A stretch of DNA of 64,000 nucleotides from assembly GCF_009914755.1 (NCBI RefSeq), contig NC_060946.1. One strand, given 5' to 3'. The notes below the pieces were generated by a model, which was not told the origin of the DNA, ran no database searches, and saw only the letters and a program-made list of their open reading frames with translations. Origin of the DNA: the human T2T-CHM13v2.0 reference genome, Homo sapiens. Numbering within the stretch: the stretch's first letter is position 1; each line of letters opens with the position of its first letter. Position numbers and translations under genes: made by a program. Below are positions 34,101 to 39,362 of the stretch, piece by piece.

Positions 34101-34482
34101 CCAGCTGCCACCATGCCTGGCTAATTTTTTGTATTTCTAGTAGAGACAGGGTTTCACTGTAATGGCCAGGATGGTCTTGATCTCCTCACCTTGTGATCCT
34201 CTTGCCTTGGCCTCCCAAAGTGCTGGGATTACAGGCCTGAGTCAAGATACATATTTTTTAAATGAAGAAAAATTTCAAAGATACTCTGCTTGGTACAATA
34301 ATCAAATATATAAATTGAGGAATAAAACATAATCATGAAACATATTTATAACTGCATATGGAAAATACAGAGGCTAATTTTTTAAATAACATATTTTGAA
34401 AACATTAACTAGTAATTTGAAAAGATCGCATTTGACAGGCCAGTATGAACATACCTTGAATGCAGCCACACAGGTTCCCCAT
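18218..34482 (-). CDS. Hypothetical spliced FAM230 ORF, 430 aa: [134 protein letters not shown]...(DAAQGIANE)n...
   Basis: Manual join of GT-AG exons 34455-34482 (28 nt), 32416-32474 (59), 31923-31947 (25), 28890-28976 (87), 23925-23990 (66), 21864-21925 (62), 21365-21398 (34) and 18218-19149 (932) gives 1293 nt with compatible phases and no internal stop. Translation in vivo is not shown. Confidence 0.45.
20393..20578 (+). mobile_element. L1 3' end fragment
   Basis: ggggcctactggagggtgggagg ... aaacctgcacatcctgcacatgtacccctgaact, then A-tail. Confidence 0.8.
22900..23860 (+). mobile_element. Old L1 (L1M) ORF2 3' and UTR fragment
   Basis: aaaatgggcaaaagact ... cattagtcattagggaaatgcaaatgaaaa ... 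aacattatgcttagtgaaataagccagacacaaaagg. Confidence 0.75.
24861..25138 (+). mobile_element. AluS
   Basis: Full Alu. Confidence 0.88.
26985..28210 (+). mobile_element. Old L1 fragments (ORF2 and 3')
   Basis: gatgtagcaaaagcagtccttagagggaaat ... aaaatcaataaaaccaaaagctggttctttga ... aagcaccaggcccagatggttt. Confidence 0.75.
28225..28538 (-). mobile_element. AluS with target-site duplication
   Basis: Full Alu flanked by atatactcaattttt and atatgctcagttttt. Confidence 0.9.
32984..33095 (+). mobile_element. Alu left-arm fragment
   Basis: caggcatagtggctcacacctgtaatcccagc ... gaccagcctgaccaacatggtaaaacccc. Confidence 0.8.
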
Positions 34483-36340
34483 AAGAAAAATCAAAATCAG
34501 GGAAAATGAAACCACAAAGGTTCAATCTGCTCTGACCTTTGAAAAACTCAGCACAGATAGTGGCACTTAGGACCAAGGGCAGCAGATCCCTAATCCCATC
34601 ACCATGGTGATAGGGCATAAACATTCCAGGGTGAAGGCACAATCCACACTGTGAGGTCCAACTGCTGCCATGCAGACAGGTGGGCTTTTACAAGTACAGG
34701 AAGGTCATCAAAGGCTCAGTGTTTTGTTTCAAAAACTGAATCCCAAGCCCACACATTATTATGCTGGCTTCTTAAAATAAGTTATGAGATGGGAAATAGG
34801 GCACCCACAAATATATATATATATATATAATTATATATAATATAATGTATAGTATATATATAATATATTTAATATATTATATATATTTTATATATATATA
34901 TATATATATATATATATATATATATATATATATATATATAATTTGGGAATTTGGGAATAAACTGAATCCCAATTCACACTGGGACTACACCAGCTGCCAC
35001 CATGCCTGGCTAATTTTTTGTATTTGTAGTAGAGACAGGGTTTCACTGTTATTGGCCAGGATGGTCTTGATCTCCTCACCTTGTGATCCTCTTGCCTTGG
35101 CCTCCCAAAGTGCTGGGATTACAGGCCTGAGTCAAGATACATATTTTTTAAATGAAGAAAAATTTCAAAGATACTCTGCTTGGTACAATAATCAAATATA
35201 TAAATTGAGGAATAAAACATAATCTTGAAACATATTTATAACTGCATATGGAAAATACAGAGGCTAATTTTTTAAATAACATATTTTGAAAGCATTAACT
35301 AGTAATTTGAAAAGATCGCATTTGACAGGCCAGTATGAACATACCTTGAATGCAGCCACACAGGTTCCCCATAAGAAAAATCAAAATCAGGGAAAATGAA
35401 ACCACAATGGTTCAATCTGCTCTGACCTTTGAAAAACTCAGCACAGATAGTGGCACTTAGGACCAAGGGCAGGAGATCCCTAATCCCATCACCATGGTGA
35501 TAGGGCATAAACATTCCAGGGTGAAGGCACAATCCACACTGTGAGGTCCAACTGCTGCCATGCAGACAGGTGGGCTTTTACAAGTACAGGAAGGTCATCA
35601 AAGGCTCAGTGTTTTGTTTCAAAAACTGAATCCCAAGCCTACACATTATTATGCTGGCTTCTTAAAATAAGTTATGAGATGGGAAATAGGGCACCCACAA
35701 ATATATATATACATAAAATTATATATAATATAGTATATATATATATATATATATATAATTTGGGAATTTGGGAATAAAATGAATCCCAATTCACACTGGG
35801 ACTACACCAGCTGCCACCATGCCTGGCTAATTTTTTGTATTTGTAGTAGAGACAGGGTTTCACTGTATTGGCCAGGATGGTCTTGATCTCCTCACCTTGT
35901 GATCCTCTTGCCTTGGCCTCCCAAAGTGCTGGGATTACAGGCCTGAGTCAAGATACATATTTTTTAAATGAAGAAAAATTTCAAAGATACTCTGCTTGGT
36001 ACAATAATCAAATATATAAATTGAGGAATAAAACATAATCTTGAAACATATTTATAACTGCATATGGAAAATACAGAGGCTAATTTTTTAAATAACATAT
36101 TTTGAAAGCATTAACTAGTAATTTGAAAAGATCGCATTTGACAGGCCAGTATGAACATACCTTGAATGCAGCCACACAGGTTCCCCATAAGAAAAATCAA
36201 AATCAGGGAAAATGAAACCACAATGGTTCAATCTGCTCTGACCTTTGAAAAACTCAGCACAGATAGTGGCACTTAGGACCAAGGGCAGCAGATCCCTAAT
36301 CCCATCACCATGGCGATAGGGCATAAACATTCCAGGGTGA
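34040..36340. repeat. Three tandem HSATI/Alu-fragment/(AT)n units (~0.8-0.9 kb; third unit truncated)
   Basis: Near-identical blocks start at ~34045, ~34940 and ~35757: atttgggaatttgggaataaa, antisense Alu left arm, ~560-bp satellite body (aagatacatatttttt ... gggcacccacaa), then variable (TA)n. Confidence 0.88.
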
Positions 36341-38511
36341 ATATTAAATAAATTATATATTATATAAGATATTATATATATCTTATATAATATATTATAT
36401 ATAATATATTGTATAAAATAATATATATTTTATATATAATATAATATTATATATAATATAATATATAATATATTATACAATAATATATTATAATATAATG
36501 TATATTATAATCTAATATATTATATATTATTATATAATATAATATTATATTATTATATAATATAATATTATATATTATTATATAATATAATATATATTAT
36601 TATATAATATAATATTATATATTATTATATAATATAATATTATATATTATTATATAATATAATATTATATATTATTATATAATATAATATTATATATTAT
36701 TATATAATATAATATTATGTATTATTATATAATATAATATTATGTATTATTATATAATATAATATTATGTATTATTATATAATATATATTATTATATAAT
36801 ATTATATATTATTATATAATATTATATATTATTATATAATATTATATATTATTAAATATAATATTATATATTATTATATAATATATCATATATTATTATA
36901 TAATATATGATATATTATTATATAATATATCATATATTATTATATAATATATCATATATTATTATATAATATTATATAATATTATATTATATATTATTAT
37001 ATAACATTATATAATATTATATTATATAATATTATATATTAATATATAATATAATATATATTGTTATATAATATATTATATATTATTAAATAATACAATA
37101 TTATATATTATTATATAATACAATGTTATATATTATTATATAATACAATGTCATATATTATTATATAATATAATATCATATATTATTATATAATATAATA
37201 TCATATATTATTATATAAAATAATATCATATATTATTATATAAAATAATATCATATATTATTATATAATATAATATTCTATATTATTATATAATATTATA
37301 TTCTATAATATTATATAATATTATATTATATATAACATTATATAGTCTTATGTATTTTATAATAATATAATATATAATATATTGTGATATATTATATATA
37401 ATATTATATAATATATTATGACATATTATATATAATATAGAATATGATATATTATATATATTATAAAATATATTATATATTATGTAAGATATTATGATAT
37501 ATATTATATAATATATTATATATTATGTAAGATATTATGATATATATTATATAATATATTATATATTATGTAAGATATTATGATATATATTATATATTCT
37601 ATAATATATTATGATATATATTATATATTATATAATATATTATGATATATATAATATAATGTAATATAATATAGTTATATGTAATATAATATTATATATC
37701 ATATATATCATATATTATATATTATACATCATATATCATATATTATGTATCATATATCATATATCATATATTATATATTATATATCATATATTATATATT
37801 ATATATCATATATTACATATAATATATGTCACAGATTTTATGTAATATATGTCACATATTATATGTAATATATGTCATATATTATATGTAATATATATCA
37901 TATATTATATGTAATATATATCATATATTATATATGTCATTTATTATGTAATATGTTTCATACATATTATATATAATATATATGATGTGTTATATATATT
38001 ATATATGATATATATTTTATGTAATATATGATACATATTATATAATATGTATATTATCTATATTATATATTCTATATAAAATATATATATTATATATGTC
38101 ATATATAATATATGTTATATTACATATATTATATATAATATATATTATATATAATATATAGTAAATATTATATACCTAATATATTTATTATATATAATAT
38201 ATTATATATAATATATATTAGGTATATAATATATTATATATAATATGTTATATATAATATATTTATATAATATATTATATATAATATATCTTATGTATAG
38301 AGTATATTATGTAAATATATTATATATGATATATTATGTACATAATGTATATTATATATAATATATTATATATAATATATTATATATATAACGTGACATA
38401 TAATATATATTATTTATATATAATGTATATTATATTTTATATATATTATATATTATATGATATATATAATATATAGTACATATAATATACATTATATATG
38501 TATAATTTTTT
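36341..38511. repeat. AT-rich block 1 (~2.2 kb, almost pure A/T) with 20-25-bp subrepeats and local palindromes
   Basis: Direct reading, e.g. (tattattatataatataatattata)n at ~36520-36780. Confidence 0.95.
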
Positions 38512-39362
38512 TTAGACCAGATTCTTGTTCTGTTGCACAGGCTGGAATGCAATGGCGCCATCTTGGCTCACTGCAACCTCTGCCTCACGGGTGCAAGCGA
38601 TTGTCCTGCCTCAGCCTCCCAGGTAGCTGGGGCTACACCACACTGGGACTACACCAGCTGCCACCATGCCTGGCTAATTTTTTGTATTTGTAGTAGAGAC
38701 AGGGTTTCACTGTATTGGCCAGGATGGTCTTGATCTCCTCACCTTGTGATCCTCTTGCCTTGGCCTCCCAAAGTGCTGGGATTACAGGCCTGAGTCAAGA
38801 TACATATTTTTTAAATGAAGAAAAATTTCAAAGATACTCTGCTTGGTACAATAATCAAATATATAAATTGAGGAATAAAACATAATCATGAAACATATTT
38901 ATAAGTGCATATGGAAAATACAGAGGCTAATTTTTTATATAACATATTTTGAAAGCATTAACTAGTAATTTGAAAAGATCGCATTTGACAGGCCAGTATG
39001 AACATACCTTGAATGCAGCCACACAGGTTCCCCATAAGAAAAATCAAAATCAGGGAAAATGAAACCACAATGGTTCAATTTGCTCTGACCTTTGAAAAAC
39101 TCAGCACAGATAGTGGCACTTAGGACCAAGGGCAGCAGATCCCTAATCCCATCACCATGGCGATAGGGCATAAACATTCCAGGGTGAAGGCACAATCCAC
39201 ACTGTGAGGTCCAACTGCTGCCATGCAGACAGGTGTGCTTTCAGATGTACAGGAAGGTCATCGAAGGCTCAGTGTTTCGTTTCAAAAACTGAATCCCAAG
39301 TCCACACATTATTATGCTGTGCTTCTTAAAATAAGTTATGAGATAGGAAATAGGGCACCCCC
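38512..39362. repeat. Fourth HSATI/Alu unit, with a two-armed antisense Alu (38512-38796) and satellite body (38797-39362)
   Basis: Same body as units 1-3, with more substitutions in its 3' part. Confidence 0.88.

What the first reader, a model, noticed from the sequence alone, without database searches (positions are those of the whole stretch)
34455..39035. Each HSATI satellite unit carries the ATG exon of the FAM230 ORF
Seen: ATG GGG AAC CTG TGT GGC TGC ATT CAA G|gtatgt (MGNLCGCIQ plus a strong phase-1 donor) occurs unchanged on the minus strand at 34455-34482, 35345-35372, 36161-36188 and 39008-39035, once per unit. Its phase fits the 59-nt exon at 32474. Knowledge: HSATI-Alu-AT tripartite units occur in LCR22 and are related to the DYZ2/HSat1B arrays of Yq12. 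Inference: the satellite monomer may be an amplified gene 5' end (first exon, adjacent intron and Alu). Unit number would then set the number of alternative first exons, and large satellite arrays elsewhere could carry a fossil start exon.
Basis: partly seen in the sequence, partly recalled or inferred. Interest (0 to 1): 0.8.

Follow-up and report, generated by a model that had tools for sequence, protein, structure and literature searches.

The report
Y-chromosome satellite built from a gene start
Each repeat unit here really carries the first exon, start codon and splice site of the FAM230H transcript, and comparison with single-copy relatives indicates that this satellite family, including the huge DYZ2 arrays of the Y chromosome, grew out of the 5' end of an old testis-type gene.

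Summary
Observation confirmed. The 34-nt ATG exon plus donor occurs exactly four times on the minus strand, once per HSATI unit. The proximal copy is RefSeq exon 1 of FAM230H. Splicing gives a 430-aa frame from this ATG.

That HSATI supplies exon 1 of FAM230 lincRNAs is already published (Delihas 2015, 2018). Those papers derive the exon from a satellite. My data point the other way.

- Two single-copy relatives, at chr22:32.83 Mb (beside an RFPL gene) and at chr22:23.9 Mb (LCR22F), hold the whole 566-bp HSATI sequence inside longer collinear homology with FAM230 introns and exons 2-4. Both keep the ATG and the GT donor. Both lack the Alu and AT-rich parts.
- A tree rooted on the 32.83 Mb copy puts LCR22F basal and Yq12 DYZ2 nested and derived.
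- DYZ2 keeps its own version of the exon in 4,928 exact copies.

Evidence for a functional protein is weak: dN/dS is at least 1, and one proximal unit reads ACG. Use of upstream units as alternative first exons could not be tested. No outgroup genomes were available, and Babcock 2007 could not be read.

The parts
34455..34558 (-). FAM230H exon 1 (RefSeq NR_136559.2) inside HSATI unit 1. It has a 76-nt leader, the ATG at 34480-34482, 28 coding nt at 34455-34482 (MGNLCGCIQ, phase 1), and the donor GTATGT at 34449-34454.
   Evidence: Hub annotation
34250..34816 (-). HSATI unit 1: the 567-bp non-Alu, non-AT part of the repeat. It corresponds to about 260 bp upstream of the start site, exon 1, and about 205 bp of intron 1.
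   Evidence: 99% to unit 2; 88-89% to DYZ2; 80% to the single-copy 22q12.3 locus
34023..34245 (-). A 5'-truncated Alu fragment, a short spacer and (TA)n. This is an insertion relative to the single-copy relatives, whose sequence runs ...ATATGTATC|ATTTCCTTTTACATCC... without it.
35140..35706 (-). HSATI unit 2, with an exon-1 copy whose coding part is 35345-35372 and donor 35339-35344.
35956..36341 (-). HSATI unit 3, 5'-truncated to 386 bp. It keeps the start-site region, the ATG exon (36161-36188) and the donor.
36342..38505 (-). AT-rich array of about 2.1 kb. It starts directly at the A-tail of the full Alu of unit 4.
38506..38797 (-). Near full-length Alu of unit 4, in sense to the transcript. 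Units 1-3 keep only about 155 nt of it (34090-34244, 34979-35134, 35796-35950).
   Evidence: multi-copy hits of 73-89%; Delihas's RepeatMasker tables; naming it Alu from the sequence is also my own reading
38803..39370 (-). HSATI unit 4 (97% to unit 2), with the ATG exon at 39008-39035.
32416..32474 (-). FAM230H exon 2 (59 nt). It continues the frame opened in exon 1.
   Evidence: Hub annotation

Best explanation
The 566-bp 'HSATI' part of each unit is not satellite in origin. It is the promoter-proximal region, first exon (leader, ATG, nine codons, 5' splice site) and first ~200 bp of intron 1 of an old testis-type transcription unit, the FAM230 / 22q12.3 RFPL-antisense-like family.

Proposed order of events (inferred from the anatomy):
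1. A 5'-truncated Alu landed in intron 1, about 205 bp after the donor.
2. Its A-tail grew into an AT-rich array.
3. The segment [promoter - exon 1 - intron start - Alu - AT] was tandemly duplicated in place.
4. Copies of this tripartite unit then seeded arrays on acrocentric short arms and the ~14-Mb DYZ2/HSat1B arrays of Yq12, and were carried along with the LCR22 duplications.

Because the whole 5' module is inside the unit, every unit brings its own start site, ATG and donor. In the window the unit next to exon 2 is the one annotated as FAM230H exon 1.

Shown here: the copies, the splice phase, the open frame, the homology to DYZ2, the single-copy 'empty-site' relatives and the tree. Inferred: the order of events above. 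Not shown: that the upstream units fire and splice, or that the frame is translated.
For: Copies and splicing. There are four exact copies, one per unit, against 0 of 100 shuffles. The annotated FAM230H donor is the predicted one, and the frame is 430 aa (hub table).

Linkage to FAM230 genes. All 8 of 8 LCR22A-D copies of FAM230 exons 2-3 have 2 to 26 exon-1 copies 1.9-5.9 kb upstream on the same strand.

The 22q12.3 relative. One search found a 74-79% relative of exons 2-3 at C22:32831598-32832515. One search shows it is collinear with window 34813..27387. The HSATI part (win 34713-34249) matches C22:32835092-32834623 at 79.7% over 473 bp. The next block starts 22 bp further on, where the window holds 260 bp of Alu and AT. 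Its exon-1 homologue reads ATGGGGAACCTGAGTTCCTGCATTAAAG|GTATGT, the splice sites of exons 2-4 are kept, and the frame is open for 67 codons. It is the only copy of the exon outside satellites and LCRs.

The LCR22F relative. It has one HSATI homologue (90.7%) and no Alu or AT. Its homology blocks with 22q12.3 span both HSATI borders (L029 5221-5906 and 5926-6075).

The chr13 FAM230C locus. It has three units in place between flanks homologous to 22q12.3, with further collinear matches about 11 kb upstream.

Tree. An ML tree of 24 copies rooted on 22q12.3 puts LCR22F basal (96/95). DYZ2-Y (100/100) sits inside an acrocentric HSat1B clade (100/100). K2P distances are 0.24-0.33 to the root copy, 0.09-0.16 to LCR22F, and 0.11 between DYZ2 and the window.

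DYZ2. It shares the same HSATI-Alu junction and keeps ATG...G|GTATAT, with 4,928 exact copies and 8 of 8 blindly sampled units.

AT-rich part. It begins at the Alu A-tail.

Conservation. Identity between the two single-copy loci peaks at 0.84-0.88 around the annotated start site and 0.84-0.90 in proximal intron 1.

Expression in print. FAM230 lincRNAs are reported as testis-specific (PMC5906017, passages). RFPL3S is reported as testis and germ-cell specific (PMC9165694, passages).
Against: - No outgroup genome could be searched, so polarity rests on human paralogues and on a root with a long branch (0.1 per site on each side).
- Several inner forks of the tree are unresolved: 10 of 20 inner branches are drawn open.
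- Most of the 24 tree rows were picked through pattern hits. '24 of 24 keep the ATG' and '23 of 24 keep GT' are therefore biased upward.
- In the window itself nothing upstream of the array matches the 22q12.3 locus. The in-place argument rests on chr13 and LCR22F.
- The published reading is the opposite: exon 1 'originated from the TBTA', and the TBTA motif 'originated from a satellite sequence' (PMC5906017, section 14).
- Rhie et al. read their Alu tree as acrocentric HSat1B deriving from the Y. My tree does not resolve that point.
- Retention of the ATG and GT in DYZ2 needs no selection. At 89% identity five fixed bases survive by chance about half the time (my estimate), and array homogenisation explains the 4,928 identical copies.
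- Coding is doubtful. RefSeq calls FAM230H a lncRNA. dN/dS is 1.48 against LCR22F (97 codons), 3.2 against chr13 (120 codons) and 1.38 against 22q12.3 (66 codons). The unit nearest exon 2 at C22:19106855 reads ACG. One chr13 unit has lost the donor.
Confidence: 0.78

Rival explanations
1. Satellite first (the published polarity). HSATI/HSat1B existed as a satellite. A few units landed beside FAM230-like exons, and a chance ATG and GT inside the monomer were taken over as first exon.
For: [quoted passage not shown] The satellite copies outnumber the gene-linked ones by about 100 to 1. The 28 coding nt are no better conserved between DYZ2 and the window (25 of 28) than the whole unit is (89%).
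Against: Two single-copy loci hold the HSATI sequence with continuous homology across both of its borders and without Alu or AT. This rival would need two independent, base-precise removals of the Alu and AT parts, plus acquisition of matching flanks. The 22q12.3 copy is far more diverged (K2P 0.24-0.33) than any two satellite copies (at most 0.16) and still has the ATG, the donor and exons 2-4 in order. LCR22F is basal in the rooted tree.
Confidence: 0.08
2. The frame is a real protein. FAM230 genes encode fast-evolving testis proteins whose N-terminus MGNLCGC is N-myristoylated and palmitoylated. On this reading the satellite units multiply a genuine translation start.
For: Open frames from this ATG are 430 aa in FAM230H, 306 aa at chr13 and 245 aa at LCR22F with exon 5 unmapped, and at least 67 codons at 22q12.3. 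This holds despite 49-69 substitutions and in-frame length changes of 3 nt in exon 2 and exon 4. My estimate is that about 2-3 stops would be expected per comparison if evolution were neutral. Met-Gly followed by a small residue at position 6 fits the N-myristoylation rule (my recollection of the consensus). Delihas 2020 reports a 454-aa FAM230A frame and a cDNA-derived protein record (PMC7098633, passage).
Against: dN/dS is at least 1 in all three comparisons. RefSeq lists FAM230H as a lncRNA. The proximal unit of one LCR22A copy has ACG. Most of the frame lies in a 27-nt tandem repeat, which stays open without selection: there are frames of up to 2,211 aa in the LCR22B copy. RFPL3S is described as 'without apparent ORF' (PMC9165694). 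The Kozak context is weak (C at -3).
Confidence: 0.2
3. Only the proximal unit matters. The upstream units, and all DYZ2 and acrocentric units, are silent heterochromatic copies. Unit number then has no effect on transcripts.
For: RefSeq gives one transcript, starting in the proximal unit (hub table). DYZ2 arrays are reported as hypermethylated (Hallast et al. preprint, passage). The DYZ2 donor is weakened to GTATAT.
Against: The upstream units in the window are 97-100% identical to the used one, including the start-site region, except that unit 3 lacks the distal 181 bp. Delihas notes a related gene in which the repeat covers two exons. There is no direct evidence either way.
Confidence: 0.5

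Closest known systems
HSat1B / HSATI / DYZ2 (Frommer 1984; Altemose 2021/22; Rhie 2023; Hallast 2023)
   Same: Same repeat family. The 567-bp non-Alu part is 88-89% identical over its full length. It has the same junction to a 5'-truncated Alu and the same AT-rich third part. The papers describe the same three parts.
   Different: The window units are mostly a short derivative (816-890 bp, with about 155 nt of Alu and a short (TA)n) rather than 2.4 kb. They lie upstream of gene exons rather than in megabase arrays. The passages I read treat the GC-richer part simply as 'HSATI satellite' and give no source for it.
Translocation breakpoint type A (TBTA) / PATRR22 flank, and the FAM230 lincRNA family (Delihas 2015, 2018a, 2018b, 2020)
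   Same: The same units. TBTA has an 813-bp internal repeat (positions 1-306 equal 814-1119). The HSATI segment is said to form the entire exon 1 of several of these lincRNAs, which are testis-specific.
   Different: Those papers do not discuss the ATG or the frame of exon 1. They list LINC01658 (LCR22F) among carriers of the TBTA motif, whereas in T2T-CHM13 I see no Alu or AT part beside its HSATI homologue. They propose that the exon came from a satellite. Here the satellite appears to come from the exon-bearing unique sequence.
D4Z4 macrosatellite with DUX4 (recalled, not checked here)
   Same: A long-unit tandem array in which each unit carries a gene part, and only the unit at one end of the array is in a position to make a complete transcript.
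   Different: D4Z4 units hold a whole ORF and depend on a distal polyadenylation signal. HSATI units hold only promoter, first exon and donor, and depend on downstream exons.
Y-linked arrays derived from genes: TSPY/DYZ5 in man, Su(Ste)/Stellate in Drosophila (recalled, not checked here)
   Same: Testis-expressed gene material amplified into large Y-chromosome tandem arrays.
   Different: Those arrays amplify whole or nearly whole genes. DYZ2 amplifies only a 5' fragment fused to an Alu and an AT-rich tract.

Membership tests
HSat1B / HSATI (DYZ2-type) repeat | Sequence similarity of the non-Alu, non-AT part to DYZ2 units of Yq12 | tested here: met
   88-89% identity over 567 of 567 bp to 7 full units in two Yq12 stretches; alignment
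HSat1B / HSATI (DYZ2-type) repeat | Tripartite unit: HSATI part, 5'-truncated Alu, AT-rich tract | tested here: met
   Unit 4 has all three parts at full size (2847-bp spacing). Units 1-3 have shortened Alu and AT parts.
HSat1B / HSATI (DYZ2-type) repeat | Head-to-tail tandem arrangement | tested here: met
   Four units in register with spacings of 890, 816 and 2847 bp. There are 26 units, 25 of them at 813-bp spacing, in the LCR22B copy.
First exon of a FAM230 transcript | Annotated transcript starts in the unit and uses its GT donor to reach exon 2 | tested here: met
   RefSeq NR_136559.2 exon 1 is 34455-34558 (hub table); the splice sites were checked. This is met for unit 1 only. Units 2-4 have no annotation and could not be tested.
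Protein-coding start exon | First ATG of the transcript opens a long frame across the splice junctions | tested here: met
   430 aa in FAM230H with no upstream ATG in the leader. Frames are also open at chr13, LCR22F and 22q12.3.
Protein-coding start exon | Purifying selection on the encoded sequence | tested here: not met
   Nei-Gojobori dN/dS of 1.48, 3.2 and 1.38 over 97, 120 and 66 codons. An ACG variant sits in one proximal unit.
Protein-coding start exon | Evidence of translation or N-terminal lipidation | not testable with these tools
   No ribosome-profiling or peptide data are available here. The N-myristoylation paper (PMC4550359) covers C22orf42 and DRICH1, which I could not link to this family.
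Gene-fragment-derived satellite (unique sequence amplified in place) | Single-copy homologue with continuous homology across both unit borders and lacking the added parts | tested here: met
   22q12.3 and LCR22F loci. The chr13 array lies between the ancestral flanks.
Gene-fragment-derived satellite (unique sequence amplified in place) | Single-copy state is older than the array (outgroup species or rooted tree) | tested here: inconclusive
   The rooted tree and the distances agree, but no non-human genome could be searched.

The most novel reading that the evidence does not exclude
The roughly 4,900 DYZ2 units of Yq12, and the acrocentric HSat1B units, are more than fossils. Each keeps a working testis promoter, start site and 5' splice site inherited from the FAM230/RFPL3S-like gene. 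On this reading the largest human heterochromatin block would be a germ-line-specific source of short unspliced or aberrantly spliced RNAs, or a sink for the promoter's factors and U1 snRNP. HSATI unit number at each LCR22 FAM230 gene (2 to 26 in this genome) would then tune its output.
Probability: 0.12. Interest if true: 0.85.

Novelty: new member of a known kind. Interest (0 to 1): 0.6.

Why it matters
HSat1B/DYZ2 makes up about 14 Mb of the human Y (Rhie et al.). It also flanks PATRR22, the hotspot of the recurrent t(11;22) translocation. In the papers I could read, its GC-richer third is simply labelled 'HSATI satellite'.

If that part is the promoter, first exon and intron start of a testis-type gene, three things follow:
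- The origin of a major human satellite becomes concrete and datable, using the Alu insertion and the empty sites.
- The published direction (satellite to lincRNA exon) is reversed.
- Thousands of Y-linked and acrocentric units become candidate germ-line start sites and 5' splice sites, which can be looked for directly in testis CAGE, long-read and nascent-RNA data.

It also gives a simple reason why every LCR22 FAM230 copy starts in this repeat. The AT-rich tract that grew from the Alu tail is both the duplication border and the fragile site.

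Tried and rejected
**Naming the 22q12.3 relative.** I first guessed C22orf42 (recalled). Takamitsu 2015 shows C22orf42 and DRICH1 are N-myristoylated, but the text and three supplementary tables held give no N-terminal sequences. By recalled map position, C22orf42 does not fit. The locus instead lies tail-to-tail with an RFPL gene: RDM, RING and PRY/SPRY domains at C22:32821976-32824763. That fits RFPL3S, but I had no annotation for that region, so the name stays unverified.

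**DRICH1 as a further relative.** A six-frame search with the LCR22F Asp-rich exon-8 peptide gave 106 matches, all in FAM230 loci. DRICH1 was therefore not examined.

**A weak match at C22:32607248-32607377**. It is an isolated fragment with no collinearity.

**tblastn of the 430-aa frame against the 22q12.3 region.** It gave only weak hits for exons 1, 2 and 4, with E values from 9 to 27. Exons 5-7 were not found there by DNA either.

**Paralogue row.** It was wrong because exon 2 was mis-mapped as 60 nt instead of 62 nt. I redid it by coordinates.

**Whole-genome BLAST with the HSATI part.** It scored only 40 of 845 candidates, all in LCR22, so it says nothing about other chromosomes. Two earlier tries were unanswered.

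**Upstream flank of the window array.** It has no homology to 22q12.3.

**Literature.**
- Babcock 2007 is not held, so I know it only from its recalled abstract and from Delihas's account.
- No paper held contains both RFPL3S and FAM230 apart from one differential-expression gene list. None contains both DRICH1 and FAM230A.
- The searches for FAM230 + satellite + AT-rich, HSat1B + DYZ2 + Alu, FAM230 + chimpanzee + ancestral, HSat1B + ancestral + apes and DYZ2 + ancest + autosom gave no statement on the source of the HSATI part in the passages I read.
- bioRxiv supplements are closed and might bear on this.

Full report
**1. The observation**

The string ATGGGGAACCTGTGTGGCTGCATTCAAG followed by GTATGT is present exactly four times. 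All four are on the minus strand, at 34449-34482, 35339-35372, 36155-36188 and 39002-39035. None of 100 dinucleotide-preserving shuffles gave a match even with three mismatches.

The four sites are in register in a direct repeat with spacings of 890, 816 and 2847 bp. Reading the strand gives the same layout for each unit:
- about 566 bp of ordinary-complexity sequence, which holds the exon;
- then an Alu in sense orientation, near full length in unit 4 and about 155 nt in units 1-3;
- then an AT-rich tract, about 2.1 kb in unit 4 and short elsewhere.

The hub's RefSeq table places FAM230H exon 1 at 34455-34558 (-), which is exactly the predicted donor. Splicing the 12 annotated exons gives GT at every donor and AG at every acceptor. 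It also gives a 430-aa frame from this ATG, the first ATG of the transcript, through exon 2 and into the tandem-repeat exon 8.

**2. What was already known**

- Delihas (PLoS One 2018, PMC5906017; Noncoding RNA 2018, PMC6162681; both read as passages; he cites his BMC Genomics 2015 paper, PMC4607176, of which I saw only the abstract and outline) reported three things. [quoted passage not shown] The HSATI segment forms the entire exon 1 of several of them. They are expressed almost only in testis.
- He derives the exon from the breakpoint motif, and the motif from a satellite.
- His 2020 paper (PMC7098633, passages) notes a 454-aa FAM230A frame and calls the origin of FAM230C uncertain.
- The T2T papers describe HSat1B/DYZ2 as Alu fragment, AT-rich tract and a GC-richer or 'HSATI' part. 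The passages I read give no source for that part.
- Babcock 2007, which first described the tripartite repeat on 22q11, the acrocentrics and Yq12, is not held. I know it only by recalled abstract.

**3. Relation to DYZ2**

Two of five 10-kb stretches taken blindly from Yq12 were DYZ2, with a 2,420-bp period. Their HSATI part is 88-89% identical to the window's over all 567 bp. They share the same junction to the Alu.

At the exon they read ATGGGGAACCTGTGTTGCTGCTTTGAAG|GTATAT. The ATG, nine codons, phase and GT are all kept, with 4 differences in 34 nt.
- This version occurs 4,928 times exactly in the genome, 26 forward and 4,902 reverse. The listed sites are on the Y from 28.66 Mb onward and on the short arms of chr15, 21 and 22.
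- All 8 of 8 units in the two blind Y stretches have it.

The window version, allowing up to 2 mismatches, occurs 62 times. Of these, 45 are exact and all 45 lie in LCR22A, B and D. The rest lie on chr13, 14, 21 and 22 near the centromeres.

This retention needs no selection. At 89% identity five fixed bases survive by chance about half the time (my estimate), and array homogenisation does the rest.

**4. Linkage to FAM230 genes**

The region of exons 2-3 has 8 copies at 99% or more in LCR22A-D, one on chr13 (98%), one in LCR22F (93%) and one distant relative. Every one of the 8 LCR22 copies has exon-1 copies 1.9-5.9 kb upstream on the same strand. The counts are 4, 4, 3, 2, 3, 26, 4 and 3. 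In one of them the unit nearest exon 2 reads ACG instead of ATG (C22:19106855).

**5. The key result: single-copy relatives**

*The 22q12.3 relative.*
- It lies at C22:32.83 Mb and is collinear with window 34813..27387 at 70-80% identity.
- The HSATI part is included: win 34713-34249 matches C22:32835092-32834623 at 79.7% over 473 bp, and win 34813-34739 matches 32835519-32835444.
- The next block resumes 22 bp later, where the window has 260 bp of Alu and AT.
- Its exon-1 homologue reads ATGGGGAACCTGAGTTCCTGCATTAAAG|GTATGT (MGNLSSCIK).
- Exons 2 (62 against 59 nt), 3 (25 nt) and 4 (87 nt) keep their splice sites, and the frame stays open for 67 codons.
- A degenerate pattern search finds this as the only copy of the exon outside satellites and LCRs.
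- It lies tail-to-tail with an RFPL gene: RDM E=1.9e-22, RING E=2.5e-18, SPRY E=1.1e-26. From recalled gene maps this fits RFPL3S, which is described as a testis- and germ-cell-specific antisense lncRNA 'without apparent ORF' (PMC9165694). I could not verify the name.

*The LCR22F relative.*
- It lies at C22:23.9 Mb and has one HSATI homologue (90.7%) that runs straight on into intron 1.
- Its sequence reads ...AAAAAATATGTATC|ATTTCCTTTTACATCC.... In window unit 1 the Alu fragment and (TA)n (34245-34023) sit exactly at the bar.
- Homology blocks between LCR22F and 22q12.3 span both borders of the HSATI segment.

*The chr13 FAM230C locus.*
- Three units lie between flanks that match 22q12.3.
- There are further collinear matches about 11 kb upstream.

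The '566-bp satellite' is thus an internal piece of a longer unique segment.

**6. Polarity**

I built an ML tree of 24 HSATI copies rooted on the 22q12.3 copy.
- LCR22F branches first; the rest form a clade with support 96/95.
- The chr13, other pericentromeric and LCR22 copies form an unresolved comb.
- DYZ2-Y (100/100) sits inside a clade of acrocentric HSat1B copies (100/100).
- K2P distances are 0.24-0.33 from the root copy to all others, 0.09-0.16 from LCR22F, and 0.11 between DYZ2 and the window.

The AT-rich tract begins at the A-tail of the Alu. The simplest order of events is: unique gene 5' region, then Alu insertion about 205 bp into intron 1, then growth of the tail into an AT-rich tract, then tandem duplication in place, then spread to the acrocentrics, Yq12 and the LCR22s.

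Limits:
- No outgroup genomes were available, and the root branch is long.
- 10 of 20 inner branches are open.
- Most rows were chosen through pattern hits, so '24 of 24 keep the ATG' and '23 of 24 keep GT' are biased upward.
- The window's own upstream flank shows no homology to 22q12.3.
- Whether the acrocentric HSat1B copies derive from the Y (Rhie et al.) or the reverse is not resolved here.

**7. Is it a coding start?**

*For:*
- Frames from this ATG are open in FAM230H (430 aa), chr13 (306 aa), LCR22F (245 aa, with exon 5 unmapped and filled with N) and 22q12.3 (at least 67 codons).
- Length changes are in frame.
- The N-terminus fits the myristoylation rule (recalled).

*Against:*
- dN/dS is 1.48, 3.2 and 1.38.
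- There is an ACG variant in one proximal unit and a lost donor in one chr13 unit.
- RefSeq labels FAM230H a lncRNA.
- Most of the frame is a 27-nt tandem repeat that stays open without selection, reaching 2,211 aa in the LCR22B copy.

I put about 0.2 on a functional protein.

**8. Is it a working 5' module?**

Identity between the two single-copy loci peaks around the annotated start site (0.84-0.88 at -114 to -40) and in proximal intron 1 (0.84-0.90 at +111 to +235). Elsewhere it is roughly 0.55-0.8. That is modest support for an ancestral promoter and first exon.

Units 2 and 4 are 97-100% identical to the used unit across this region, and unit 3 lacks only the distal 181 bp. Whether these units fire could not be tested.

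**9. Verdict**

The bare exon-in-satellite fact is published. In the literature I could search, the reversed polarity, the empty-site relatives and the count of fossil start exons on the Y appear not to be published.

Noticed in passing
G000 C22:20719529-20741924 (+), LCR22B; outside the window: A tandem array of 26 exact exon-1 copies, 25 of them at 813-bp spacing, lies 2.5 kb upstream of a FAM230 exon 2-3 copy. The 813-bp period equals the internal repeat of the published PATRR22 breakpoint sequence. The exon-8 repeat of the same gene copy is open for up to 2,211 aa.
   Followed up: partly
G000 C22:19106855-19106888 (+), LCR22A: The HSATI unit nearest exon 2 of this FAM230 copy reads ACG instead of ATG. 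This is a natural loss of the start codon in the unit most likely to be used.
   Followed up: no
L014 5976-6542 and 8050-8763 (+), which is C22:32821976-32824763: An RFPL gene (RDM, RING, PRY/SPRY) lies tail-to-tail with the 22q12.3 relative of FAM230. The relative is probably RFPL3S, but the name is unverified.
   Followed up: partly
L029 4358-4530 (LCR22F) and L018 9068-9238 (chr13): A second, partial copy (about 175 bp, HSATI positions 92-266, the part upstream of the start site) sits about 0.9 kb further down intron 1 in both loci. It also matches 22q12.3 at 32834926-32835097. This looks like an older local duplication. In the window this stretch seems replaced by an Alu at 32985-33095.
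   Followed up: no
window 17184-19149 (-), FAM230H exon 8: Most of the 430-aa frame is a tandem array of 9-residue units (such as NEDAAQGIA). Relatives carry different Asp/Glu-rich variants: DISNEAAVH in LCR22F and ADEDAVHGI on chr13.
   Followed up: partly
L015 about 9119-9410, which is C22:32835119-32835410: The 22q12.3 locus has its own, independent antisense Alu inside the HSATI-homologous region, flanked by a duplicated AAAA(C/G)GCCTAATCTTT (read by eye). It is absent from all HSATI copies.
   Followed up: no
G000 C22:32607248-32607377 (+): An isolated 130-bp match (74%) to the intron upstream of exon 2 of the 22q12.3 relative. Nothing around it is collinear.
   Followed up: yes
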